This document shows positions 146 to 20,700 of a DNA stretch of 45,289 nucleotides, piece after piece. Where the stretch lies: the IMG/VR virus record IMGVR_UViG_2744054912_000003, positions 1-45,289 of that record. The stretch is one strand, 5' to 3'. Below the pieces are notes generated by a model. It ran no database searches, was not told the DNA's origin, and saw nothing but the letters and a program-made list of their open reading frames with translations. The position numbers were made by a program, and so were the translations under genes. This stretch comes from a virus (Duplodnaviria; Heunggongvirae; Uroviricota; Caudoviricetes). Every line of letters begins with the position of its first letter. The first letter of the stretch is position 1.

Positions 146-301
146 TTACCTTTCAGATTCGTAGGCTGTGAAGACAGTGACCTCCGTCTGGCCGGTTCGG
201 ATTCGTACCTCGCAGAGGTCTTTCCTCGTTACCAGTGCCGTCACAATGACGGTTAAACAGATTACGATCAGAGCGATTAATATCGCTTTTTGCTGCTTCA
301 T
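146..301 (-). CDS. hok: Hok-family type I toxin (51 aa, single transmembrane helix)
   Basis: Manual translation of the minus strand gives MKQQKAILIALIVICLTVIVTALVTRKDLCEVRIRTGQTEVTVFTAYESER, close to E. coli HokD/HokC as remembered. This frame is not in the supplied ORF track (under 60 aa). Confidence 0.85.
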   Translation of the reverse strand: MKQQKAILIALIVICLTVIVTALVTRKDLCEVRIRTGQTEVTVFTAYESER

Positions 302-359
302 AGCCTGCTTCTCCTTGACCTTTTGGTCGGTAAGAGGCTAATCTACGTATGCTAAGCAT
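153..359 (-). CDS. mok: Mok-like overlapping leader frame (translationally coupled to hok)
   Basis: 68-aa ORF covering almost all of hok in another frame and extending 58 nt upstream, as in the plasmid R1 hok/mok arrangement. Confidence 0.55.
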   Translation of the reverse strand: MLSIRRLASYRPKGQGEAGYEAAKSDINRSDRNLFNRHCDGTGNEERPLRGTNPNRPDGGHCLHSLRI

Positions 360-410
360 AGATATTGCCTCAGATTAATGTTAAGCGTCTTGCAGGACGC
401 GTAATGTTAT
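345..410 (+). ncRNA. sok: Putative Sok-like antisense RNA (position by analogy only; boundaries not determined)
   Basis: In hok/sok loci the antisense RNA lies opposite the mok start and leader; no promoter or terminator was mapped here. Confidence 0.25.
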
Positions 411-635
411 CTGGGGCTTTCTTCTATCTGCTTTTCGGGTAATGCCTGAAGCAGATAGCCTCAAGCACCCGCAACGATTGTATCAATGTCTGGCTTTTTT
501 TCTATAGAAATCACCGGGAAGGGTGAATATCCACATCAGAAGAAATGTTGCAGCAAACATGATCCCTAATGGCCAGACCGCGCCAAAGAAAATCCATACT
601 GAAAACGCCAGGTGACTCCAGATTAGAGCAATCTA

Positions 636-3736: not shown

Positions 3737-3789
3737 AGTTACGGCCTCGTAAGTTGATAAACAACCTGCGACCCGCTGCTAAACAGGTG

Positions 3790-3880
3790 GCAGGACGTGA
3801 CGGGGTTAGCAGACTGGCACTTACGAAACCAGCAGGCCGAAGCCTCCCCATCACGCCCCACCATAATTCGGGCGTAACGT
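3790..3880 (-). ncRNA. c4: c4-like antisense repressor RNA (approximate location)
   Basis: On the minus strand, UCUGCUAA and CGUAAGU (plus coordinates about 3802-3826) are complementary to UUAGCAG and ACUUACG located 40-80 nt further downstream, next to the icd ribosome-binding site. This is the two-site pairing expected for c4. Confidence 0.35.
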
Positions 3881-4048
3881 GGTTTACGGACACAAAAATA
3901 CCGCAATATCGGAAATCTGCGGTTGTCCGCGTAAGTATTCAGGCTGCTAAACCCGGTCGCAGAATTTGCTACGACGGCGAAACTATAAGCCTGAACGATT
4001 AAAAGGTCAATATGATGCAAAAAGATAGCATTCGCGACTTAAAAATAC

Positions 4049-14098: not shown

Positions 14099-14533
14099 AT
14101 GTCTGACGTCTCAACAAACCTCTATAAGAGTCAGTTGTTGGACTATTACTATCAGCGGCGCGCTGAATCGTCCATTAACAAAGGCTCTCGATTTTTAATC
14201 AGCAAGGCCGTTTTCGGTACCAGTTCACTGGTTACTAAGAAAGGAGATGGCACTTATGAGATTGGAGAACTGCCAAAGGCTTTCGATCTGGCAGAACTGA
14301 CCAGTCAATTTTGCACCATCAACCTCGTCCCAACCTACTCAGGCGGGATAATAACTGTCCGAATGGACCTTGATCAAAGCCAGTTGCAGGAAGGGAAAAA
14401 CTACCCATTCAACACTCTGGTTGTTCTGGATAACGAGAACAAGCCAATCGCCATTATTTGTGTCCAGGAAGACTCGCTGTATGTGGGCAAAACATATACC
14501 GCAGTTATGGCCATAAACACGACTACAGCATAA
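14099..14533 (+). CDS. Tail-fibre-associated structural protein (position of P1 gene R)
   Basis: 144-aa ORF immediately upstream of the tail fibre gene. Confidence 0.5.
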
Positions 14534-14544
14534 GGATATGCTTG

Positions 14545-17500
14545 ATGAATGACGTTACAGTTGTCACATCGGTTACTTACCCATCACCCGAGTCGTTGGC
14601 TCTGGTGGCTGATGTGCAATACCACGAACCATATCTGTCAGCCGCGCTAAACCGAAAATTCAGGGGGATTGTTGACCCGGGATTTTATGCCGGTTTCTTA
14701 CCTAAGCCTGGCGGTGGGATGAACCTGTTAATCACCTCAGTGGATGGTGATAAAACCGCAGGCGCGGCGTCGGTGGATATTGGTGAATTCTACCAGGTAA
14801 CTATTCAGCAACGTAAGGATATTTCTCTTGCACTTAGTGCAGGCAAGAAATATGCAATTGTGCTGAAGGGAAGATACCTCCTTGGAGAAGATACCTATCA
14901 GGTGAATACCGCGTCACATATTCATGCGGCTGAATTTGTTTCCAGAACCTATACCGATTCATATCAGTTAGGAGATGGGGAGCTGCTTGTTTGTACGGTG
15001 AATATCCCTGCTGGTGTATCTGCCATTACCCAGGAGATGATTGATACATCCAAGCGTATCAACCGCACGATCGGCATTGATATTTCAGACTCTGTAACCA
15101 GTACCAGAAGTGATGTTGCTGCGAGTTCGCTGGCAGTTAAAAAAGCCTACGATCTGGCTAAAAGCAAGTATACGGCGCAGGATGCAAGCACAACACAAAA
15201 GGGATTAGTTCAGCTCAGTAGCGCAACTAACAGCGACAGCGAAACAATGGCGGCTACCCCTAAAGCCGTTAAGTCTGTAAAAGAGCTGGCTGATACCAAA
15301 GCGCCAATAGAAAGCCCGAGTCTGACAGGAACGCCAACCGCGCCGACGGCAGCGCAAGGTACAAACAGCACGCAGATCGCAAATACAGCCTTTGTTAAGG
15401 CAGCTATAACGGCACTTATCAACGGTGCACCTGGCACACTGGATACGCTTAAAGAAATAGCTGCTGCGATCAATAACGACCCGAATTTCAGCACAACTAT
15501 CAACAATGCTCTGGCTCTTAAAGCTCCTTTAGCAAGTCCTGCATTAACGGGAATACCTACTGCGCCTACCGCTGCACAGGGTACGAATAACACGCAGATT
15601 GCTACGACCGCTTATGTAAGAGCTGCTATCTCTGCATTGGTCGGCTCATCACCTGAAGCTCTTGATACTCTGAATGAGCTTGCAGCAGCACTGGGCAATG
15701 ACCCGAACTTTGCGACAACAATGACAAATGCGCTGGCAGGCAAACAGCCTCTGGATGCAACTTTAACCGCGCTCGCTGCCCTTGCGACTGGTGCAAACAA
15801 ACTGCCTTATTTCACTGGTAAGGATACGGTAGCGCAGACTGATTTAACGTCAGTCGGTCGCGATATTCTGGCTAAAACAAGCACACTGGCCGTTATCCAA
15901 TACCTTGGTTTAAGAGAACTCGGTACCAGCGGTGAAAAGATCCCCCTGTTGAGCACGGCTAACACATGGAGTGCGCGCCAGACTTTCAACGGCGGGATCA
16001 CCGGGGCGCTGACAGGGAACGCCGACACCGCGACGAAATTGAAAACAGCACGCACGATTGGCGGTGTGGCATTTGATGGCTCGGCCAATATCAATCTTCC
16101 AGGTGTAAATACAACAGGTAACCAGAACACCACGGGGAATGCTGCTACCGCGACAAAACTTGCGACGGCAAGAAACATCAACGGTGTTAAGTTTGATGGC
16201 TCAGGCGATATCAACATTAATACATTGGTATCTCGTGGCCGAGTTACGGCGTTAAGCGGCTCTACTCAAGGCACTGCTGGCATTCAAATGTACGAGGCGT
16301 ACAACAATAGCTACCCGACCACGTATGGCAACGTATTGCACATGAAAGGTGCGAGTGCTGCTGGTGAGGGCGAGTTGCTTATTGGCTGGAGTGGTACGAG
16401 CGGTGCACATGCGCCAGTTTTCATTCGCTCCCGAAGAGATAACACAGATGCGGCATGGTCTGAGTGGGCACAGGTCTATACATCGAAAGACTCCATACCG
16501 GGCGTAAATACAACGGGCAACCAGAACACAACAGGAAATGCGGCGTCTGCCACGAAATTACAAACGGCAAGAACCATTGGTGGCGTTTCATTTAATGGTA
16601 CCGCAAACATCGACCTGCCAGGTGTGAATAAAACAGGTAATCAGAGCACTACTGGCAATGCTGCAACTGCAACAAAACTGCAAACAGCACGCACAATAGG
16701 CGGCGTATCATTCGATGGCTCCGCCAATATCAATCTGCCGGGTGTAAACATTGCTGGTAACCAGAACACAACCGGTAATGCAGCTACGGCTACCAAATTG
16801 CTAACAGCGCGTACCATTAATGGGGTTTCATTTGACGGTTCTGCGAATATTTCACTGTCACCAGCAAATATTGGTTGCCCGGCATCTCCTACTGGTTGGC
16901 TTGTAACAGGTGATAATGGAGCTTCAATAACAACAGAGCAATTAGTGACTCTGCTACGAGATAATGGTGCTTTTAATGCAAAGGCATGGATAGCGCGTTG
17001 TGCCTGGGCGTATGCAAATAGTGCATCCATACCAGACAGCGAAACAGGATGCGGCATTATTCCACTGGCTGGCGCAGTTATTGAGGTATTTAATAACGGC
17101 AGTAGCTCAAACAATTATACGATTCGTATAACAACGGCAACAACGACAGGTGTCTCTGGCGCACTCACTAATGCGGAGTTTGTCTATGTGTTTAACGGGA
17201 CGAGCTATTCACCAGGATGGCGCAGAGCGTATAACACTAAAAACAAGCCTACTGCGGCTGATGTCGGAGCTTTACCACTATCTGGAGGAGCGTTAACTGG
17301 CGGATTAACTGCTGCTGGCGAGATTATTTCCAAATCGGCGAATGGTCTGCGCATTGCCTACGGAAACTACGGATTCTTTATCCGAAACGATGGTTCAAAC
17401 ACATATTTCATGTTGACCGATTCGGGTAACAGCCTAGGAACCTATAATAGGTTAAGGCCGCTTATCATTAACAATGCCAATGGTGCTGTTACGATCGGTA

Positions 17501-18564
17501 ATGGACTCAATGTTACTGGCGGCATCAATGGTAGTTTGAACGGTAATGCTGCAACTGCTACAAAACTTCAGACTGCAAGAAAAATATCCGGTGTTCCATT
17601 TGATGGTTCTACTGATATCACTTTAACCGCCGCGCATGTGGCTGCTTTTGCCAGAAGGGCAACGGATACATATGCCGATGCGGATGGTGGCGTTCCCTGG
17701 AATGCCGAATCAGGCGCTTACAATGTCACCCGCTCTGGCGACAGCTATATTCTGGTTAACTTCTATACCGGAGTCGGAAGTTGCCGGACATTGCAGATGA
17801 AGGCGCATTACAGAAATGGTGGTCTGTTCTACCGTTCTTCAAGAGACGGTTATGGTTTTGAAGAAGACTGGGCAGAAGTTTATACCTCGAAAAATCTTCC
17901 ACCAGAAAGCTACCCAGTCGGCGCACCAATCCCGTGGCCATCAGATACCGTTCCGTCTGGTTATGCCCTGATGCAGGGGCAGACTTTTGACAAATCTGCT
18001 TACCCGAAACTTGCAGCCGCTTATCCGTCAGGCGTGATCCCTGATATGCGTGGCTGGACGATTAAGGGCAAACCTGCCAGTGGTCGTGCCGTATTGTCTC
18101 AGGAACAGGACGGCATTAAATCGCACACCCACAGCGCCAGCGCATCCAGTACGGATTTGGGGACGAAAACCACATCGTCGTTTGATTACGGTACTAAACC
18201 AACGAATAACACAGGTGCACATACCCACAATGTATCTGGTACTGCAAATAGTGCTGGCGCACATACTCATACCGTTCCATTAAGGAGACCAAACAGTGGA
18301 GGTATGAATTTCGACTGGCTTGATGGTTCATCAAGTGGCACGGTCGTGGGGAATGGAACAGTGCCTTCTTCTGGTGCACACACCCACTCAGTATCAGGCA
18401 CTGCTGCAAGTGCAGGGGCGCATGCACATACAGTTGGTATTGGCGCTCATACGCACTCTGTTGCGATTGGTTCACATGGACATACCATCACCGTTAATGC
18501 TGCTGGTAACGCGGAAAACACCGTTAAAAACATCGCATTTAATTATATTGTGAGGCTTGCATAA
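14545..18564 (+). CDS. Long tail fibre protein (start moved to the ATG at 14545 with AAGGA ribosome-binding site)
   Basis: 1339 aa; repeated ~39-aa modules GN(Q/A)[31 protein letters not shown]; C-terminal His-rich HxH array ([39 protein letters not shown]) typical of T4 gp37, Mu S and P1 S receptor-binding tips. Confidence 0.85.
16498..16854. repeat. Three tandem ~117-bp repeat units within the tail fibre gene (related copies at about 16009-16215 and 17527-17630)
   Basis: Seen directly in DNA and in the protein repeat PGVN-TGNQ-TTGNAA-ATKL-TARTI-GVSF-G-ANI-L. Confidence 0.85.
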
Positions 18565-19181
18565 TGGCATTCAGAATGAGTGAACAATCACGTACAGTAA
18601 AAATTTATAACCTGCTGGCCGGAACTAATGAGTTTATTGGTGAAGATGACGCATATATTCCACCTCATACAGGGCTGCCAGCTAATTCTACAGATATCGC
18701 CCCACCGGAAATTCCTACTGGCTTTGTGGCAGTTTTCAACAGTGAAAATGAATCGTGGAATATTGTTGAAGACCATCGTGGTAAAACGGTCTATGAGGTG
18801 GCATCGGGGGACGCGTTGTTTATTTCTGAACCCGGACCGCTACCAGAGAATGTCACCTGGTTGTCGCCAGCAGGGGAGTATCAGAAGTGGGACGGCGTAT
18901 CCTGGGTGAAGGATGAGGAAGCAGAAAAACTGTTTCGGATACGGGAAGCGGAAGAGAAAAAGGCAAGGTTGATCCAGGAGGCAACAGATAACATCGCAAT
19001 TCTGCAGGACGCAGTTAATCTTGAAATAGCAACAAACGAGGAAAATTCACAACTGGACTCCTGGAGAAAATACAGAGTATTAGTGAGTCGAATTGATACC
19101 AGTACAGCTCCGGATATCGTATGGCCAGAGCTGATGAATCAGGGTTATGTGCGGGAGGACGAGCAGATAACTTCAGACTGA
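18564..19181 (+). CDS. Tail fibre assembly protein (Tfa; P1 gene U position)
   Basis: ATG overlaps the tail fibre stop (TAATG); N-terminus [58 protein letters not shown] is the conserved Tfa N-domain seen in Mu, lambdoid and e14 phages. Confidence 0.85.
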
Positions 19182-19708
19182 AATTTAGTGATGAATGTTG
19201 AATCATCAGGAATATCATGCAATACCAATGCATGAGCACCTATTGTGACATTGTTTCCTATACGCACTTTGCCACCAAGAATGGTGGCATTACAACCAAT
19301 GGTCACATTATCTCCTATAACAATATCCATGTCATTAAATTCCCCGCGAAGTCCAATAGTTACTCCGGGCTTAATTGAACAATTTTCACCGATTGTGACT
19401 TTGTGAGCGATAACAACGCCATTGAGATAAGATATGTCAAACCCTTTCCCTATATTTACCGTTAAGGGAACGGTTACATTGTATTTGTCAAGAATGAAGC
19501 GTTCTATTTTCCCTGCAACCTTTCGCCTGTATCCGCCTTTATCAAAAAGATATTTTGATATGCGCCACCAAAATAAATAACGAACTCTTCTATGTTTTAT
19601 TGCGCGAACAATTGCTTTTCGCCAAGAGAAAGGACGCTCGCTACCAATTACTTCATAGTGAATACAGTCTTTAAGTTCATTAATAGTCATATTTTTATTG
19701 TTCAGCAT
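19145..19708 (-). CDS. Hexapeptide-repeat (left-handed beta-helix) acyl/acetyltransferase
   Basis: Repeated [LIV]-G-x-x-x-x hexads ([16 protein letters not shown]...[34 protein letters not shown]); low GC compared with flanking genes; 3' end overlaps the convergent tfa by 37 bp. Confidence 0.8.
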
Positions 19709-19769
19709 AATATAATAATGTGACCAATTATTATAATAACTTTAATGGATTATTTCTACTGATTATCCA

Positions 19770-20700
19770 GTGTGTCTGGCGGTTTTCGGTATTATCTGCC
19801 GGAACCATGCCTCATCCAGCGGGTATTTGCTGCCTGGGTTGTCCGGTTTTTCGGTCACTCCCTCAGGCCTCCGATTCTGGTCACGGCGGGTTTGTTATTT
19901 TCCAGTGCGTCGGATGACCACTGCCGCAACTTCTGCACCATTTTTTGGGAGCGGGATTTCACTCCTACGCAACCTGCGCTTTTTGTGCAGCCTGTTTTGC
20001 GTGCTATCCCGGATTTTTGAGTTTCATTCTGCCTCCATGATCCTATCAGGGACGACACCAATCCACTTAAGCACGATGCCAAGACCATCAAGGAGCTGCG
20101 TCAGAGGCCCAGCACAATGTTCTGCTTGATCGGCATAGGGGGGAGCACAAGGGCTGCGCCCCTGCCACACCACCCGGCATGCGGGTCCGTACCGGGCTTC
20201 CCCGGCTTCTGACGCAATGCCCTGTCAAGAGTCATATCTTCTGGCTTTCCTTCTCGTTCGGCCCTTCGTCGGAGTCCTGACTACTACGGCCTCTGCTGAC
20301 TTCTCGCTCCGTCTTACGACGTTGCCCTTTCAGGCATGAGGCGAGAACTCCCCAGGTAAGAACGCGATCCTTCCCCGCACAACCGTCGGATCTGCGCGAC
20401 TTCGACTTGACCACGAAAGCTTCGCAGTGATGTGCCTGCTCGCCTTGCTCCATCGCGCCTCATATCCGATTCTCGTTCATCGGCTCACGGGTTCATTCCG
20501 TGCTTCCTCCCCACGCCCGGTCGCCCTCACGCAGTTGCACTTCATTTCGCTCGCTGTGGTCAGCTCGCGGGAGGGCTTTCACCTCCAAGATCGCGCCCAT
20601 GCTGGGCGCACACATTCTCCACGCTCTAAAGGACGTGGAGGATGTCAAGCAACATGACCGGTTGAGAAGTTACTTTGCATACCATTACCTCCTGACAACG
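19770..20700. other. GC-rich (visibly well above flanking DNA) ~0.9 kb region with no convincing ORF
   Basis: Only short overlapping ORFs in all frames and both strands; several perfect hairpins (GCGCCCA-TGC-TGGGCGC, CTCCACG-N10-CGTGGAG). Confidence 0.5.

What the first reader, a model, noticed from the sequence alone, without database searches (positions are those of the whole stretch)
19145..19708. Hexapeptide-repeat acyltransferase moron tucked against the tail fibre assembly gene
A low-GC left-handed beta-helix acyltransferase is encoded convergently to tfa and overlaps its 3' end by 37 bp, with an AT-rich promoter-like region at 19709-19770. Soluble acyltransferases of this fold in O-antigen and capsule loci acetylate sugar precursors. 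One placed beside the receptor-binding tail fibre could modify a surface polysaccharide (lysogenic conversion or exclusion of related phages), but it could equally target a small molecule or antibiotic.
Basis: partly seen in the sequence, partly recalled or inferred. Interest (0 to 1): 0.6.

Follow-up and report, generated by a model that had tools for sequence, protein, structure and literature searches.

The report
Phage acetyltransferase-like gene lacking catalytic histidine
A small accessory gene that travels with the tail-fibre tip between unrelated E. coli phages is labelled "serine acetyltransferase" in databases but cannot be one; it descends from sugar-acetylating enzymes, has lost their catalytic residues, and is still strongly conserved.

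Summary
A low-GC (0.385 vs 0.486) ORF lies convergent to tfa and overlaps it by 37 bp, with a conserved promoter-like site upstream. The true start is the ATG at 19690 (181 aa), not 19708.

The window is a P1-type phage-plasmid. The gene belongs to a 1.85-kb cassette (fibre tip, tfa, this gene, its promoter; 17932-19778) found at 84-94% identity in P2-type prophages, a 48-kb phage-plasmid and lambdoid prophages. It occurs in 245 of 5,426 complete E. coli genomes.

The fold is serine-acetyltransferase-like (pLDDT 93.8). None of the SAT active-site side chains is kept, and every curated family cut-off is missed. Distant relatives sit in polysaccharide synthesis clusters.

The catalytic His, present in 225 of 244 relatives, is Tyr in this clade, and the partner acid is Thr. 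dN/dS is still about 0.04-0.12, so this is not a remnant.

The most likely role is a lysogen-expressed gene that alters a surface-sugar precursor, by unusual or non-catalytic chemistry. No function is shown. This is a new variant of a known kind, of moderate interest.

The parts
17932..19778 (.). Mobile cassette shared between unrelated phage backbones: fibre tip, tfa, acetyltransferase-like gene and its promoter
   Evidence: blastn of the window against other loci: 17932-19778 is 93.5-93.8% identical to P2-type prophages (L016, L021), a 48-kb RepA phage-plasmid (L017) and phage vB_EcoM-613R2 (L001). 17539/17879-19765 is 84-86% identical to lambdoid prophages (L018, L019). The right-hand edge is nearly the same in all.
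17932..18564 (+). 3' end of the tail fibre gene (last ~210 codons, HxH-repeat tip ending ...[11 protein letters not shown])
   Evidence: ORF 14458..18564 (RefSeq start corresponds to 14545). The tip protein is 97.5% identical over the last 122 aa to the P2-type and 48-kb plasmid copies.
18564..19181 (+). Tail fibre assembly gene tfa (205 aa)
   Evidence: Pfam Caudo_TAP E 2.8e-39. dN/dS 0.06-0.17 between backbones.
19145..19690 (-). Acetyltransferase-like CDS, 181 aa (SAT-type fold; catalytic His replaced by Tyr at residue 88, which is Y94 in the 187-aa numbering)
19691..19708 (-). Six extra codons of the maximal ORF. Probably not translated, because this ATG is not conserved.
   Evidence: In the lambdoid copies the ATG is replaced by TAC with a 1-nt gap. 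RefSeq annotates 546 nt. Homologues begin at the position of M7.
19145..19181 (.). 37-bp convergent overlap of the two stop-proximal ends
   Evidence: It is caused by the 15-aa extension [15 protein letters not shown] of this tfa allele and is absent in the lambdoid copies.
19730..19758 (-). Sigma-70-type promoter-like site: -35 TAGAAA, 17 nt spacer, -10 TATAAT. The inferred transcription start is near 19723.
   Evidence: 10 of 12. In eight copies from four backbones the -35 is invariant, the -10 is TATAAT or TACAAT, and the spacing is conserved. Function not shown.

Best explanation
This is a phage accessory gene (a moron) that moves by recombination as part of a 1.85-kb cassette with the tail-fibre tip and tfa. 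It encodes a cytoplasmic protein with the serine-acetyltransferase-type architecture: four N-terminal helices followed by a left-handed beta-helix. It descends from WcaB/EpsC-type enzymes that acetylate lipid-linked polysaccharide repeat units, not from cysteine biosynthesis. The proposed mechanism is as follows. The gene is transcribed from its own promoter, independently of and convergent to the late tail operon, so it is made in lysogens. The protein acts at the cytoplasmic stage of surface-glycan assembly (LPS core, O-antigen, enterobacterial common antigen or colanic acid precursors). This changes the cell surface of the lysogen, with superinfection exclusion or another surface phenotype as the benefit. 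This particular clade has replaced the His/acid catalytic pair with Tyr/Thr and remodelled neighbouring pocket positions. It therefore either transfers the acyl group by a base-independent or Tyr-assisted route, possibly to a different acceptor atom, or works by binding rather than catalysis. Shown here: the gene is real, under purifying selection, mobile as a cassette, of this fold and ancestry, and missing the catalytic residues. Inferred only: expression in lysogens, the acceptor, and the phenotype.
For: Real and maintained: dN/dS is 0.04-0.12 among most copies from P1-type, P2-type, 48-kb plasmid and lambdoid backbones, and 0.08-0.17 against a 53%-identical homologue. The neighbouring tfa gives 0.06-0.17. 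Fold: AF2 pLDDT 93.8, pTM 0.84. The top 50 PDB matches are all SATs, probability 1.00, query-normalised TM-score 0.63-0.76. The family profile against the PDB gives SATs at E 3e-34. Polysaccharide ancestry: the best NCBIfam matches are EpsC, CysE and WcaB. His-bearing relatives P0093, P0103 and P0083 lie among GT2/GT4 glycosyltransferase genes, two of them with a Wzy gene and one with a flippase gene. WcaB-like enzymes act on lipid-linked intermediates (annotation; PMC13463779). Moron features: GC 0.385 vs 0.486; a conserved -35/-10 pair; convergent orientation; absence at this position in P1-type relatives, since P1-type homology stops at 16049 (shown against JL22) and homology to P1 itself resumes at 20647. 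Recurrent linkage to tfa: convergent neighbours in JL22 (36% id), Hafnia yong2 (52%), Citrobacter phiNP (40%), P0014 (53%) and P0016 (53%). Spread: 245 of 5,426 E. coli genomes and 58 plasmids. Remodelling, not decay: Tyr in 17 of 17 clade members against His in 225 of 244 relatives. P114, M127 and D128 are conserved in the clade with one or two exceptions. The C-terminal coils are the most conserved region across both clades. Precedent: the prophage-encoded beta-helix O-acetyltransferase NeuO protects against K1 phage (PMC13001214). Klebsiella prophage acetyltransferases associate with K-loci (PMC13123978).
Against: There are no expression data and no phenotype. The catalytic His and its partner acid are absent, and one structural paper states that all crystallised beta-helix family members share a catalytic His (PMC3046976). 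There is no clear Shine-Dalgarno sequence before the ATG at 19690. The allele does not co-vary with the fibre-tip sequence, so the link to tfa could be mere physical linkage at a favoured insertion point at the end of the tail operon. Some family members are orphan chromosomal genes or lie elsewhere in prophages. The literature offers only 'unknown' or 'fitness' for this gene class (PMC9603915, PMC6456863).
Confidence: 0.42

Rival explanations
1. Pseudoenzyme. The Tyr clade has lost acyl transfer altogether and is kept for a binding role. It might sequester a lipid-linked or nucleotide-sugar intermediate, block a host glycan-modifying enzyme, or perform some other protein-protein function in the lysogen.
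For: Both members of the catalytic pair are replaced (H to Y, E/D to T/K/V), along with neighbouring pocket positions. Purifying selection remains strong. A catalytic His is described as universal in crystallised family members (PMC3046976).
Against: Tyr is invariant in 17 of 17 clade members and the pocket substitutions are themselves conserved. This fits a reshaped active site at least as well as a dead one. The C-terminal coils, which hold the CoA site in SATs by homology, are the best-conserved part. Base-independent beta-helix N-acetyltransferases (QdtC and WlbB) are known; this rests on my own knowledge and was not tested here.
Confidence: 0.25
2. An intracellular anti-phage or counter-defence function unrelated to the cell surface, such as acylating a component of an incoming phage or a host factor. 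The tfa-distal position would then be a cargo hotspot like those of P2-type phages.
For: In P2-type prophages the gene sits between convergent tail operons, and in some relatives at the prophage end beside other cargo such as hicAB or DUF4760. That such positions carry defence genes rests on my own knowledge.
Against: No PADLOC model matches. It is a single gene with no partner. Its ancestry lies in polysaccharide clusters.
Confidence: 0.1
3. An active acyltransferase for a small molecule such as an antibiotic, metabolite or xenobiotic.
For: Beta-helix acetyltransferases include Vat, CatB, ApmA, maltose and galactoside acetyltransferases. Weak hits to these exist.
Against: Scores are 22-33 bits against curated cut-offs of 300-475. 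Those matches cover only the generic hexapeptide coils. The N-terminal helical domain and overall fold match SAT/WcaB-type proteins. The catalytic His that these enzymes use is missing.
Confidence: 0.08
4. A genuine serine O-acetyltransferase that boosts cysteine synthesis, as the database annotation and PMC9603915 suggest.
For: The closest solved structures and the name given by RefSeq.
Against: TIGR01172 scores 72.1 bits against a cut-off of 210.65, and PRK11132 scores 46.1 against 397. The SAT active-site residues defined in PMC8786284 map as D143 to T, D157 to S, H158 to Y and E166 to H. There is no Arg-His pair at 192/193 and no counterpart of D92. The C-terminus ends ...SSSRT, not the ...GDGI of CysE.
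Confidence: 0.02
5. A decaying, functionless remnant.
For: Loss of the catalytic residues. Occasional disrupted copies: one with an IS1 insertion (H102) and one with a scrambled C-terminus in a decayed prophage (L020).
Against: dN/dS is about 0.04-0.12. Full-length ORFs are kept from 53% to 100% identity in four phage backbones and several genera. The promoter hexamers are conserved.
Confidence: 0.03

Closest known systems
WcaB (colanic acid) / EpsC-type polysaccharide repeat-unit O-acetyltransferases
   Same: Same size class (146-190 aa) and the same architecture of a short helical N-domain plus beta-helix. About 33% identity to E. coli WcaB over 129 aligned columns. These are the best curated-model matches. 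Distant relatives of the query lie in polysaccharide synthesis clusters among glycosyltransferase genes, two of them with Wzy.
   Different: Scores are far below the curated cut-offs (62 vs 195; 81 vs 150). WcaB has His and Glu at the catalytic pair, whereas the query has Tyr and Thr. The gene is carried on a phage tail-fibre cassette with its own promoter, not in a glycan synthesis operon.
NeuO, the polysialic acid O-acetyltransferase of prophage CUS-3 (E. coli K1)
   Same: A prophage-borne, soluble beta-helix acyltransferase-family accessory gene. NeuO shows that such a gene can modify a surface polysaccharide and reduce killing by phage (PMC3046976, PMC13001214). This is the best functional model.
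   Different: It belongs to a different branch of the superfamily: NeuO structures do not appear among the PDB sequence matches. NeuO uses His119/Trp143 and is phase-variable through a heptanucleotide repeat. The query has no catalytic His and no repeat.
Serine O-acetyltransferase CysE (including the short isoforms)
   Same: The closest solved fold. All top 50 Foldseek hits are SATs, with query-normalised TM-score 0.63-0.76. The profile E-value is 3e-34.
   Different: None of the SAT active-site side chains is conserved, the curated cut-offs are missed, and there is no CysE-type C-terminal tail. The short CysE isoforms keep the active-site residues (PMC13040420). This protein does not.
Membrane-bound seroconverting O-acetylases of temperate phages (Sf6 Oac, P22-like GtrC, D3 Oac)
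   Same: The same proposed biological logic: a lysogen-expressed acetyl modification of a surface glycan that excludes related phages (PMC7067206, PMC12373910).
   Different: Those are integral-membrane acyltransferases that act after export. This protein has no membrane segment and would have to act on cytoplasmic precursors.
His-bearing phage homologues of the same family (JL22 'sacF', phiNP 'sat', ESSI2 gp40, P0016)
   Same: The same family (36-53% identity), the same size, and mostly the same position convergent to tfa. They are equally uncharacterised (PMC9603915, PMC6456863).
   Different: They keep the His plus Asp/Glu pair and Gln114. The query's clade has Tyr, Thr/Lys/Val and Pro.

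Membership tests
Hexapeptide-repeat / left-handed beta-helix acyltransferase superfamily | Hexapeptide repeats detected above the curated Pfam threshold | tested here: met
   PF00132: 51.7 bits against a cut-off of 27, E 5e-14.
Hexapeptide-repeat / left-handed beta-helix acyltransferase superfamily | Left-handed beta-helix fold | tested here: met
   AF2 model pLDDT 93.8. 82 PDB matches at E <= 0.001, and the top 50 are all beta-helix SATs with probability 1.00.
Hexapeptide-repeat / left-handed beta-helix acyltransferase superfamily | Catalytic histidine (stated to be shared by all crystallised members, PMC3046976) | tested here: not met
   The column holding CysE H158 and the WcaB His is Tyr in the query and in all 17 clade members, and His in 225 of 244 relatives.
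Hexapeptide-repeat / left-handed beta-helix acyltransferase superfamily | Homotrimer with active sites at subunit interfaces; acyl-CoA binding | not testable with these tools
   Only monomer prediction is available and there is no ligand modelling.
Serine O-acetyltransferase (CysE) | Score above the curated equivalog cut-off | tested here: not met
   TIGR01172: 72.1 vs 210.65. PRK11132: 46.1 vs 397.
Serine O-acetyltransferase (CysE) | Catalytic pair His158 / Asp143 (E. coli numbering; PMC8786284) | tested here: not met
   Y94 and T79 in the 187-aa numbering.
Serine O-acetyltransferase (CysE) | Serine-binding residues Asp92, Asp157, Glu166, Arg192, His193 | tested here: not met
   D157 maps to S and E166 to H. 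There is no counterpart of D92. The 192/193 loop aligns as M-D (HMMER) or as a gap (MAFFT), so no Arg-His pair exists either way.
Serine O-acetyltransferase (CysE) | C-terminal tail ending in Ile that docks into CysK (own knowledge) | tested here: not met
   The query ends ...ICSSSRT, whereas E. coli CysE ends ...EYGDGI. The query's last residues are variable and partly overlap tfa.
WcaB / EpsC-type polysaccharide O-acetyltransferases | Score above the curated cut-off | tested here: not met
   WcaB TIGR04016: 62.4 vs 194.65. EpsC NF041874: 81.1 vs 150.
WcaB / EpsC-type polysaccharide O-acetyltransferases | His plus acidic partner in the active site | tested here: not met
   WcaB has H and E, whereas the query has Y and T. 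The His-bearing phage cousins do meet this feature.
WcaB / EpsC-type polysaccharide O-acetyltransferases | Encoded within a polysaccharide biosynthesis cluster | tested here: not met
   The query lies in a tail-fibre cassette. Relatives at about 28-30% identity do lie in such clusters.
WcaB / EpsC-type polysaccharide O-acetyltransferases | Acetylation of a lipid-linked sugar repeat unit | not testable with these tools
   Needs biochemistry.
NeuO / OatWY-type prophage or capsule O-acetyltransferases | Sequence relationship; His/Trp active site; phase-variable 5' repeat | tested here: not met
   No NeuO or OatWY chain appears among the PDB sequence hits. There is no catalytic His. The only tandem repeat is a two-copy 10-mer of score 33, mid-gene.
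Xenobiotic acetyltransferases (Vat, CatB) | Score above the curated cut-offs | tested here: not met
   Vat models score 22-25 bits against cut-offs of 300-475.
Known anti-phage defence systems (PADLOC-DB 2.0) | Match to any defence protein model | tested here: not met
   0 families at E <= 0.01.
Phage moron (accessory gene class) | Dispensable insertion with deviant composition and its own promoter, flanked by conserved phage genes | tested here: met
   GC 0.385 vs 0.486. Conserved -35/-10 pair. The P1-type relative JL22 has other genes (lydC-cin-S-U) at this position and a different allele. No dedicated terminator was found. Promoter activity was not tested.
Phage moron (accessory gene class) | Expression from the prophage during lysogeny | not testable with these tools
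   No transcriptome of a lysogen carrying this cassette was found in the library.

The most novel reading that the evidence does not exclude
The Tyr clade is a neofunctionalised beta-helix protein. It is an 'acetyltransferase' that has swapped its universal His/acid catalytic pair for Tyr/Thr and reshaped the acceptor pocket. It is held under strong purifying selection and is co-mobilised with tail-fibre tips across four phage lineages. If so, it either performs acyl transfer by a mechanism not described for the SAT/WcaB branch, or acts non-catalytically, for example by capturing a lipid-linked glycan intermediate. Either would be a new way for temperate phages to reprogram the cell surface.
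Probability: 0.3. Interest if true: 0.65.

Novelty: new variant of a known kind. Interest (0 to 1): 0.45.

Why it matters
About 1 in 22 complete E. coli genomes, and many P1-type plasmids that also carry resistance genes, hold this gene under a wrong name. The two papers that noticed it could not explain it.

If it alters a surface glycan, it affects which phages can infect these strains, which matters for phage therapy and plasmid-phage spread, and possibly serotyping.

The conserved loss of the catalytic histidine makes it a simple test case for how a very common enzyme fold changes or loses its chemistry. It is a single 181-aa protein with natural His-bearing cousins to serve as controls.

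The finding also shows that tail-fibre tip exchange between P1-, P2- and lambda-type phages and phage-plasmids carries a non-structural passenger gene with it.

Tried and rejected
1. First AF2 model, from 77 sequences (pLDDT 78, beta-helix part 55-80). Its Foldseek hits were not significant (best E 0.15), so it was discarded. A 146-sequence alignment fixed this.
2. Foldseek against viral structures (BFVD). No match at E <= 0.001, so it was uninformative.
3. PADLOC defence models: no hit.
4. Test for coupling between the acetyltransferase allele and the fibre-tip sequence. Rejected: L018 has a different tip loop but a 91%-identical gene, and yong2 and P0014 have unrelated fibres but 53%-identical Tyr-clade genes.
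5. NeuO-like phase variation: no repeat tract.
6. H102 as a compensating catalytic His. It is present only in members of 65% identity or more. P0013, P0014, P0015 and yong2 have R or L there, so it cannot be the clade's general base.
7. Literature searches for a tested function of this gene class or for His-less SAT-type enzymes. These gave only 'unknown' or 'fitness' statements.
8. The 187-aa reading from the first ATG. Rejected in favour of 181 aa.
9. The mapping of CysE R192/H193 depends on the alignment: M127-D128 in HMMER and a gap in MAFFT. I therefore claim only that no Arg-His pair exists.
Full report
OBSERVATION. The tail fibre assembly gene tfa lies at 18564..19181 on the plus strand (Pfam Caudo_TAP, E 2.8e-39). 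The two are convergent and share 37 bp, 19145-19181. The CDS has GC 0.385 (GC3 0.313). This compares with 0.486 for the window, 0.463 for tfa and 0.239 for the 88 bp upstream. Pfam Hexapep is well above its threshold (51.7 vs 27 bits), and PHROG 2154 ('unknown function') matches end to end (E 8.5e-78). A sigma-70-type site lies at 19758-19730 on the gene's strand: TAGAAA, 17 nt spacer, TATAAT, 10 of 12. The first ATG is not conserved, being replaced in the lambdoid copies, while RefSeq and the homologues start at the second ATG. The CDS is therefore most likely 19145..19690, 181 aa. There is no clear Shine-Dalgarno sequence in front of it.

CONTEXT. The window is a P1-type phage-plasmid. It carries the C4 antisense RNA, its targets and sok. 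It has P1 lydA/lydB/darA downstream and a P1-type tail fibre N-terminal part upstream. It is 99.9% identical over 12.7 kb to E. coli plasmid pCTX_B2_4. Homology to the P1-type phage JL22 stops inside the fibre gene at 16049, and homology to P1 and JL22 resumes at 20647, at the darA-operon promoter. The P1 genes lydC, cin and the alternative fibre genes, as annotated in JL22, are missing. In their place are a foreign fibre end, tfa, the gene in question and about 870 bp of GC-rich non-coding DNA.

A MOBILE CASSETTE. Window 17932-19778 is 93.5-93.8% identical to P2-type chromosomal prophages (L016, L021), to a 48-kb RepA phage-plasmid (L017) and to phage vB_EcoM-613R2 (L001). Window 17539/17879-19765 is 84-86% identical to lambdoid prophages at the bio and yeh loci (L018, L019). 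The shared unit is the last ~210 codons of the fibre, tfa, the acetyltransferase-like gene and its promoter region. The right-hand edge is almost the same everywhere. Both promoter hexamers and their spacing are conserved in all eight copies examined. The gene occurs in 58 PLSDB plasmids and in 245 of 5,426 complete E. coli genomes (219 chromosomal places and 58 on plasmids). It lies next to a 'tail fiber assembly protein' in nearly every listed row. More distant members of the family are also convergent neighbours of tfa: JL22 'sacF' (36%), Hafnia phage yong2 (52%), Citrobacter phiNP 'sat' (40%), P0014 (53%) and P0016 (53%). Others lie at prophage ends or as orphan chromosomal genes in Citrobacter and Pantoea. 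I tested whether the allele tracks the receptor-binding tip, and it does not. L018 has a different central tip loop with a 91%-identical gene, and yong2 and P0014 have an unrelated fibre/tfa family with 53%-identical genes. The association is with the position after tfa, not with one receptor specificity.

WHAT THE PROTEIN IS. With a 146-sequence alignment, AlphaFold2 gives a confident model (pLDDT 93.8, pTM 0.84) with four N-terminal helices followed by beta-helix coils. Its top 50 PDB neighbours are all serine acetyltransferases (probability 1.00, query-normalised TM-score 0.63-0.76). A family profile finds SATs at E 3e-34, well ahead of galactoside and maltose acetyltransferases, GlmU and LpxD. 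There is no membrane segment. Fold membership in the SAT-like branch of the beta-helix acyltransferases is therefore met.

WHAT IT IS NOT. Every curated NCBIfam model is missed by a wide margin: EpsC 81 vs 150, CysE 72 vs 211, WcaB 62 vs 195, and Vat 22-25 vs 300-475. The SAT active site is defined in PMC8786284, with E. coli numbers given second. It comprises the catalytic pair His162/158 and Asp147/143, plus Asp96/92, Asp161/157, Glu170/166, Arg196/192 and His197/193. In the query these map as H158 to Tyr, D143 to Thr, D157 to Ser and E166 to His. There is no Arg-His pair in the 192/193 loop and no counterpart of D92. The C-terminus lacks the CysE tail. The database name 'serine acetyltransferase' is therefore wrong. 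So is the discussion of cysteine synthesis in PMC9603915, which itself says the reason for the gene's presence is unknown.

ANCESTRY. Three His-bearing relatives at about 28-30% identity (P0093, P0103, P0083) are encoded among GT2/GT4 glycosyltransferase genes, two of them (P0093, P0083) with a Wzy polymerase gene and one (P0093) with a flippase gene. E. coli WcaB, a colanic acid repeat-unit acetyltransferase (annotation), aligns at about 33% identity. The family thus derives from enzymes that acetylate lipid-linked sugar repeat units on the cytoplasmic side. The exhaustive search found only 4 clusters (at 50% identity) at E <= 1e-30, 827 at <= 1e-10 and 9,157 at <= 0.001. The close family is therefore small and the wider one large.

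THE UNEXPECTED PART. Among 244 relatives with at least 120 aligned columns, the catalytic-base column is His in 225, Tyr in 17, Asn in one and a gap in one. The 17 Tyr sequences are exactly the query's own clade, at 51% identity or more. In that clade the partner acid (E/D in 150 of 244) is T, K or V. Gln114 is Pro, with one exception. Positions 127-128 are M-D, with two exceptions. Strictly clade-discriminating positions are 94, 101, 127 and 136. Three of these four lie in the pocket coils, while the C-terminal coils are the most conserved region across both clades. This is not decay. dN/dS is 0.04-0.12 among most copies from the four backbones and 0.08-0.17 against the 53% homologue, the same range as tfa (0.06-0.17). 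Full-length ORFs persist from 53% to 100% identity in Escherichia, Hafnia and metagenomic P2-type contigs. Only occasional copies are broken: one has an IS1 insertion (H102) and one has a scrambled C-terminus in a decayed prophage (L020). A possible substitute base, H102, is absent from the 51-53% members, so it cannot be general.

MECHANISM, AND HOW SURE. Shown here: a maintained, mobile, promoter-equipped accessory gene with a SAT/WcaB-type fold and polysaccharide-enzyme ancestry, which lacks the family's catalytic pair. Inferred: it is expressed in lysogens, because it has its own promoter and runs convergent to the late operon. Also inferred: it acts on a cytoplasmic precursor of a surface glycan and so changes the lysogen's surface. 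[quoted passage not shown] Klebsiella prophage acetyltransferases associated with K-loci give a second hint (PMC13123978). Because the gene occurs in about 4.5% of E. coli genomes and on P1-type plasmids, a conserved target such as LPS core, ECA or colanic acid seems more likely than one particular O-antigen. That is inference only. How a Tyr/Thr pocket would catalyse transfer is open. It could be base-independent transfer, as in some beta-helix N-acetyltransferases (my own knowledge), Tyr-assisted transfer, or no catalysis at all. I put 0.42 on the surface-glycan moron model and 0.25 on a non-catalytic role. Intracellular defence gets 0.10, a small-molecule acceptor 0.08, a remnant 0.03 and a true SAT 0.02.

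COMPARISON AND NOVELTY. The gene works most like NeuO or the classical seroconverting acetylases in its proposed biology, and most like WcaB in its proposed biochemistry. It fails the membership tests for CysE, WcaB/EpsC, NeuO/OatWY, Vat/CatB and the PADLOC systems. The gene itself is already in databases and has been remarked on twice as unexplained cargo (PMC9603915, PMC6456863). The new points are the corrected identity, the cassette that moves between four phage types, and the conserved loss of the catalytic pair. I rate it a new variant of a known kind, with interest 0.45.

LIMITS. No expression, binding, activity or phenotype data exist. Promoter calls are consensus matches. The monomer model cannot show the inter-subunit pocket. 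The E. coli counts come from megablast of 701 bp and list only some rows.

Noticed in passing
window 19780-20646 (minus-strand sense): A GC-rich (0.577), ORF-less stretch between the cassette and the P1 darA-operon promoter. It holds group II intron domain 1-4 RNA matches (RF02001 at 20360-20530, 96.9 bits; RF01998 at 20261-20342, 46.8 bits). The first ~450 nt are 97.5% identical to part of a chromosomal intron locus annotated ltrA. There is no reverse-transcriptase ORF and no D5/D6 match, so it looks like a truncated, dead intron fragment. It is full-length in about 31 E. coli genomes, mostly P1-type plasmids, and absent from all phage records searched.
   Followed up: partly
window 16049-20647 compared with JL22 (L023 1364-4437): This P1-type element lacks lydC, the cin invertase and the invertible alternative fibre genes. 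It therefore carries a single fixed fibre type instead of P1's switchable host range.
   Followed up: partly
window 14458-18564: The tail fibre gene is a three-part mosaic. The P1-type N-part runs to 16049 (97.7% to JL22). A repeat-rich middle follows, in which 16027-16202 resembles 16666-16841 at 76%. The imported tip runs from about 17932.
   Followed up: no
window 19137-19181: This tfa allele has a 15-aa C-terminal extension ([15 protein letters not shown]) compared with the lambdoid copies, which end ...VWPEL. The extension is what creates the 37-bp overlap with the convergent gene. No terminator-like site lies between the two genes, so antisense interference is conceivable.
   Followed up: partly
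window ~19761-19772 (minus strand), and the equivalent position in L018/L019: A short imperfect palindrome abuts the -35 hexamer: CTGGATAATCAG here and ACAGTAAACTGT in the lambdoid copies. The sequences differ but the position is the same. This could be a regulator site or a recombination scar.
   Followed up: no
window 19145-19690 vs 18564-19181, compared with L016/L017/L021: Synonymous divergence from the P2-type and 48-kb plasmid copies is 3-5 times higher in the acetyltransferase-like gene (dS 0.24-0.31) than in the adjacent tfa (0.06-0.08). This implies a recombination breakpoint inside the cassette.
   Followed up: no
E. coli genomes H107, H108, H102; L020: Some genomes carry three copies of the cassette. 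One copy is split by IS1. In strain E66 the fibre and tfa have been deleted while most of the acetyltransferase-like ORF survives with a scrambled C-terminus.
   Followed up: partly
window 296-470 and 3783-3988 (minus strand): sok antitoxin RNA (114 bits), and the C4 antisense RNA with its a1/b1 targets. These are the expected P1-type plasmid maintenance and immunity elements.
   Followed up: no
L007-L009 (P0022 context): In an HP1/P2-type E. coli prophage, a His-bearing homologue sits at the prophage end. It is separated from tfa by four cargo genes (241 aa, HP1_ORF34, 567 aa and DUF4760) that look like a variable accessory island.
   Followed up: no
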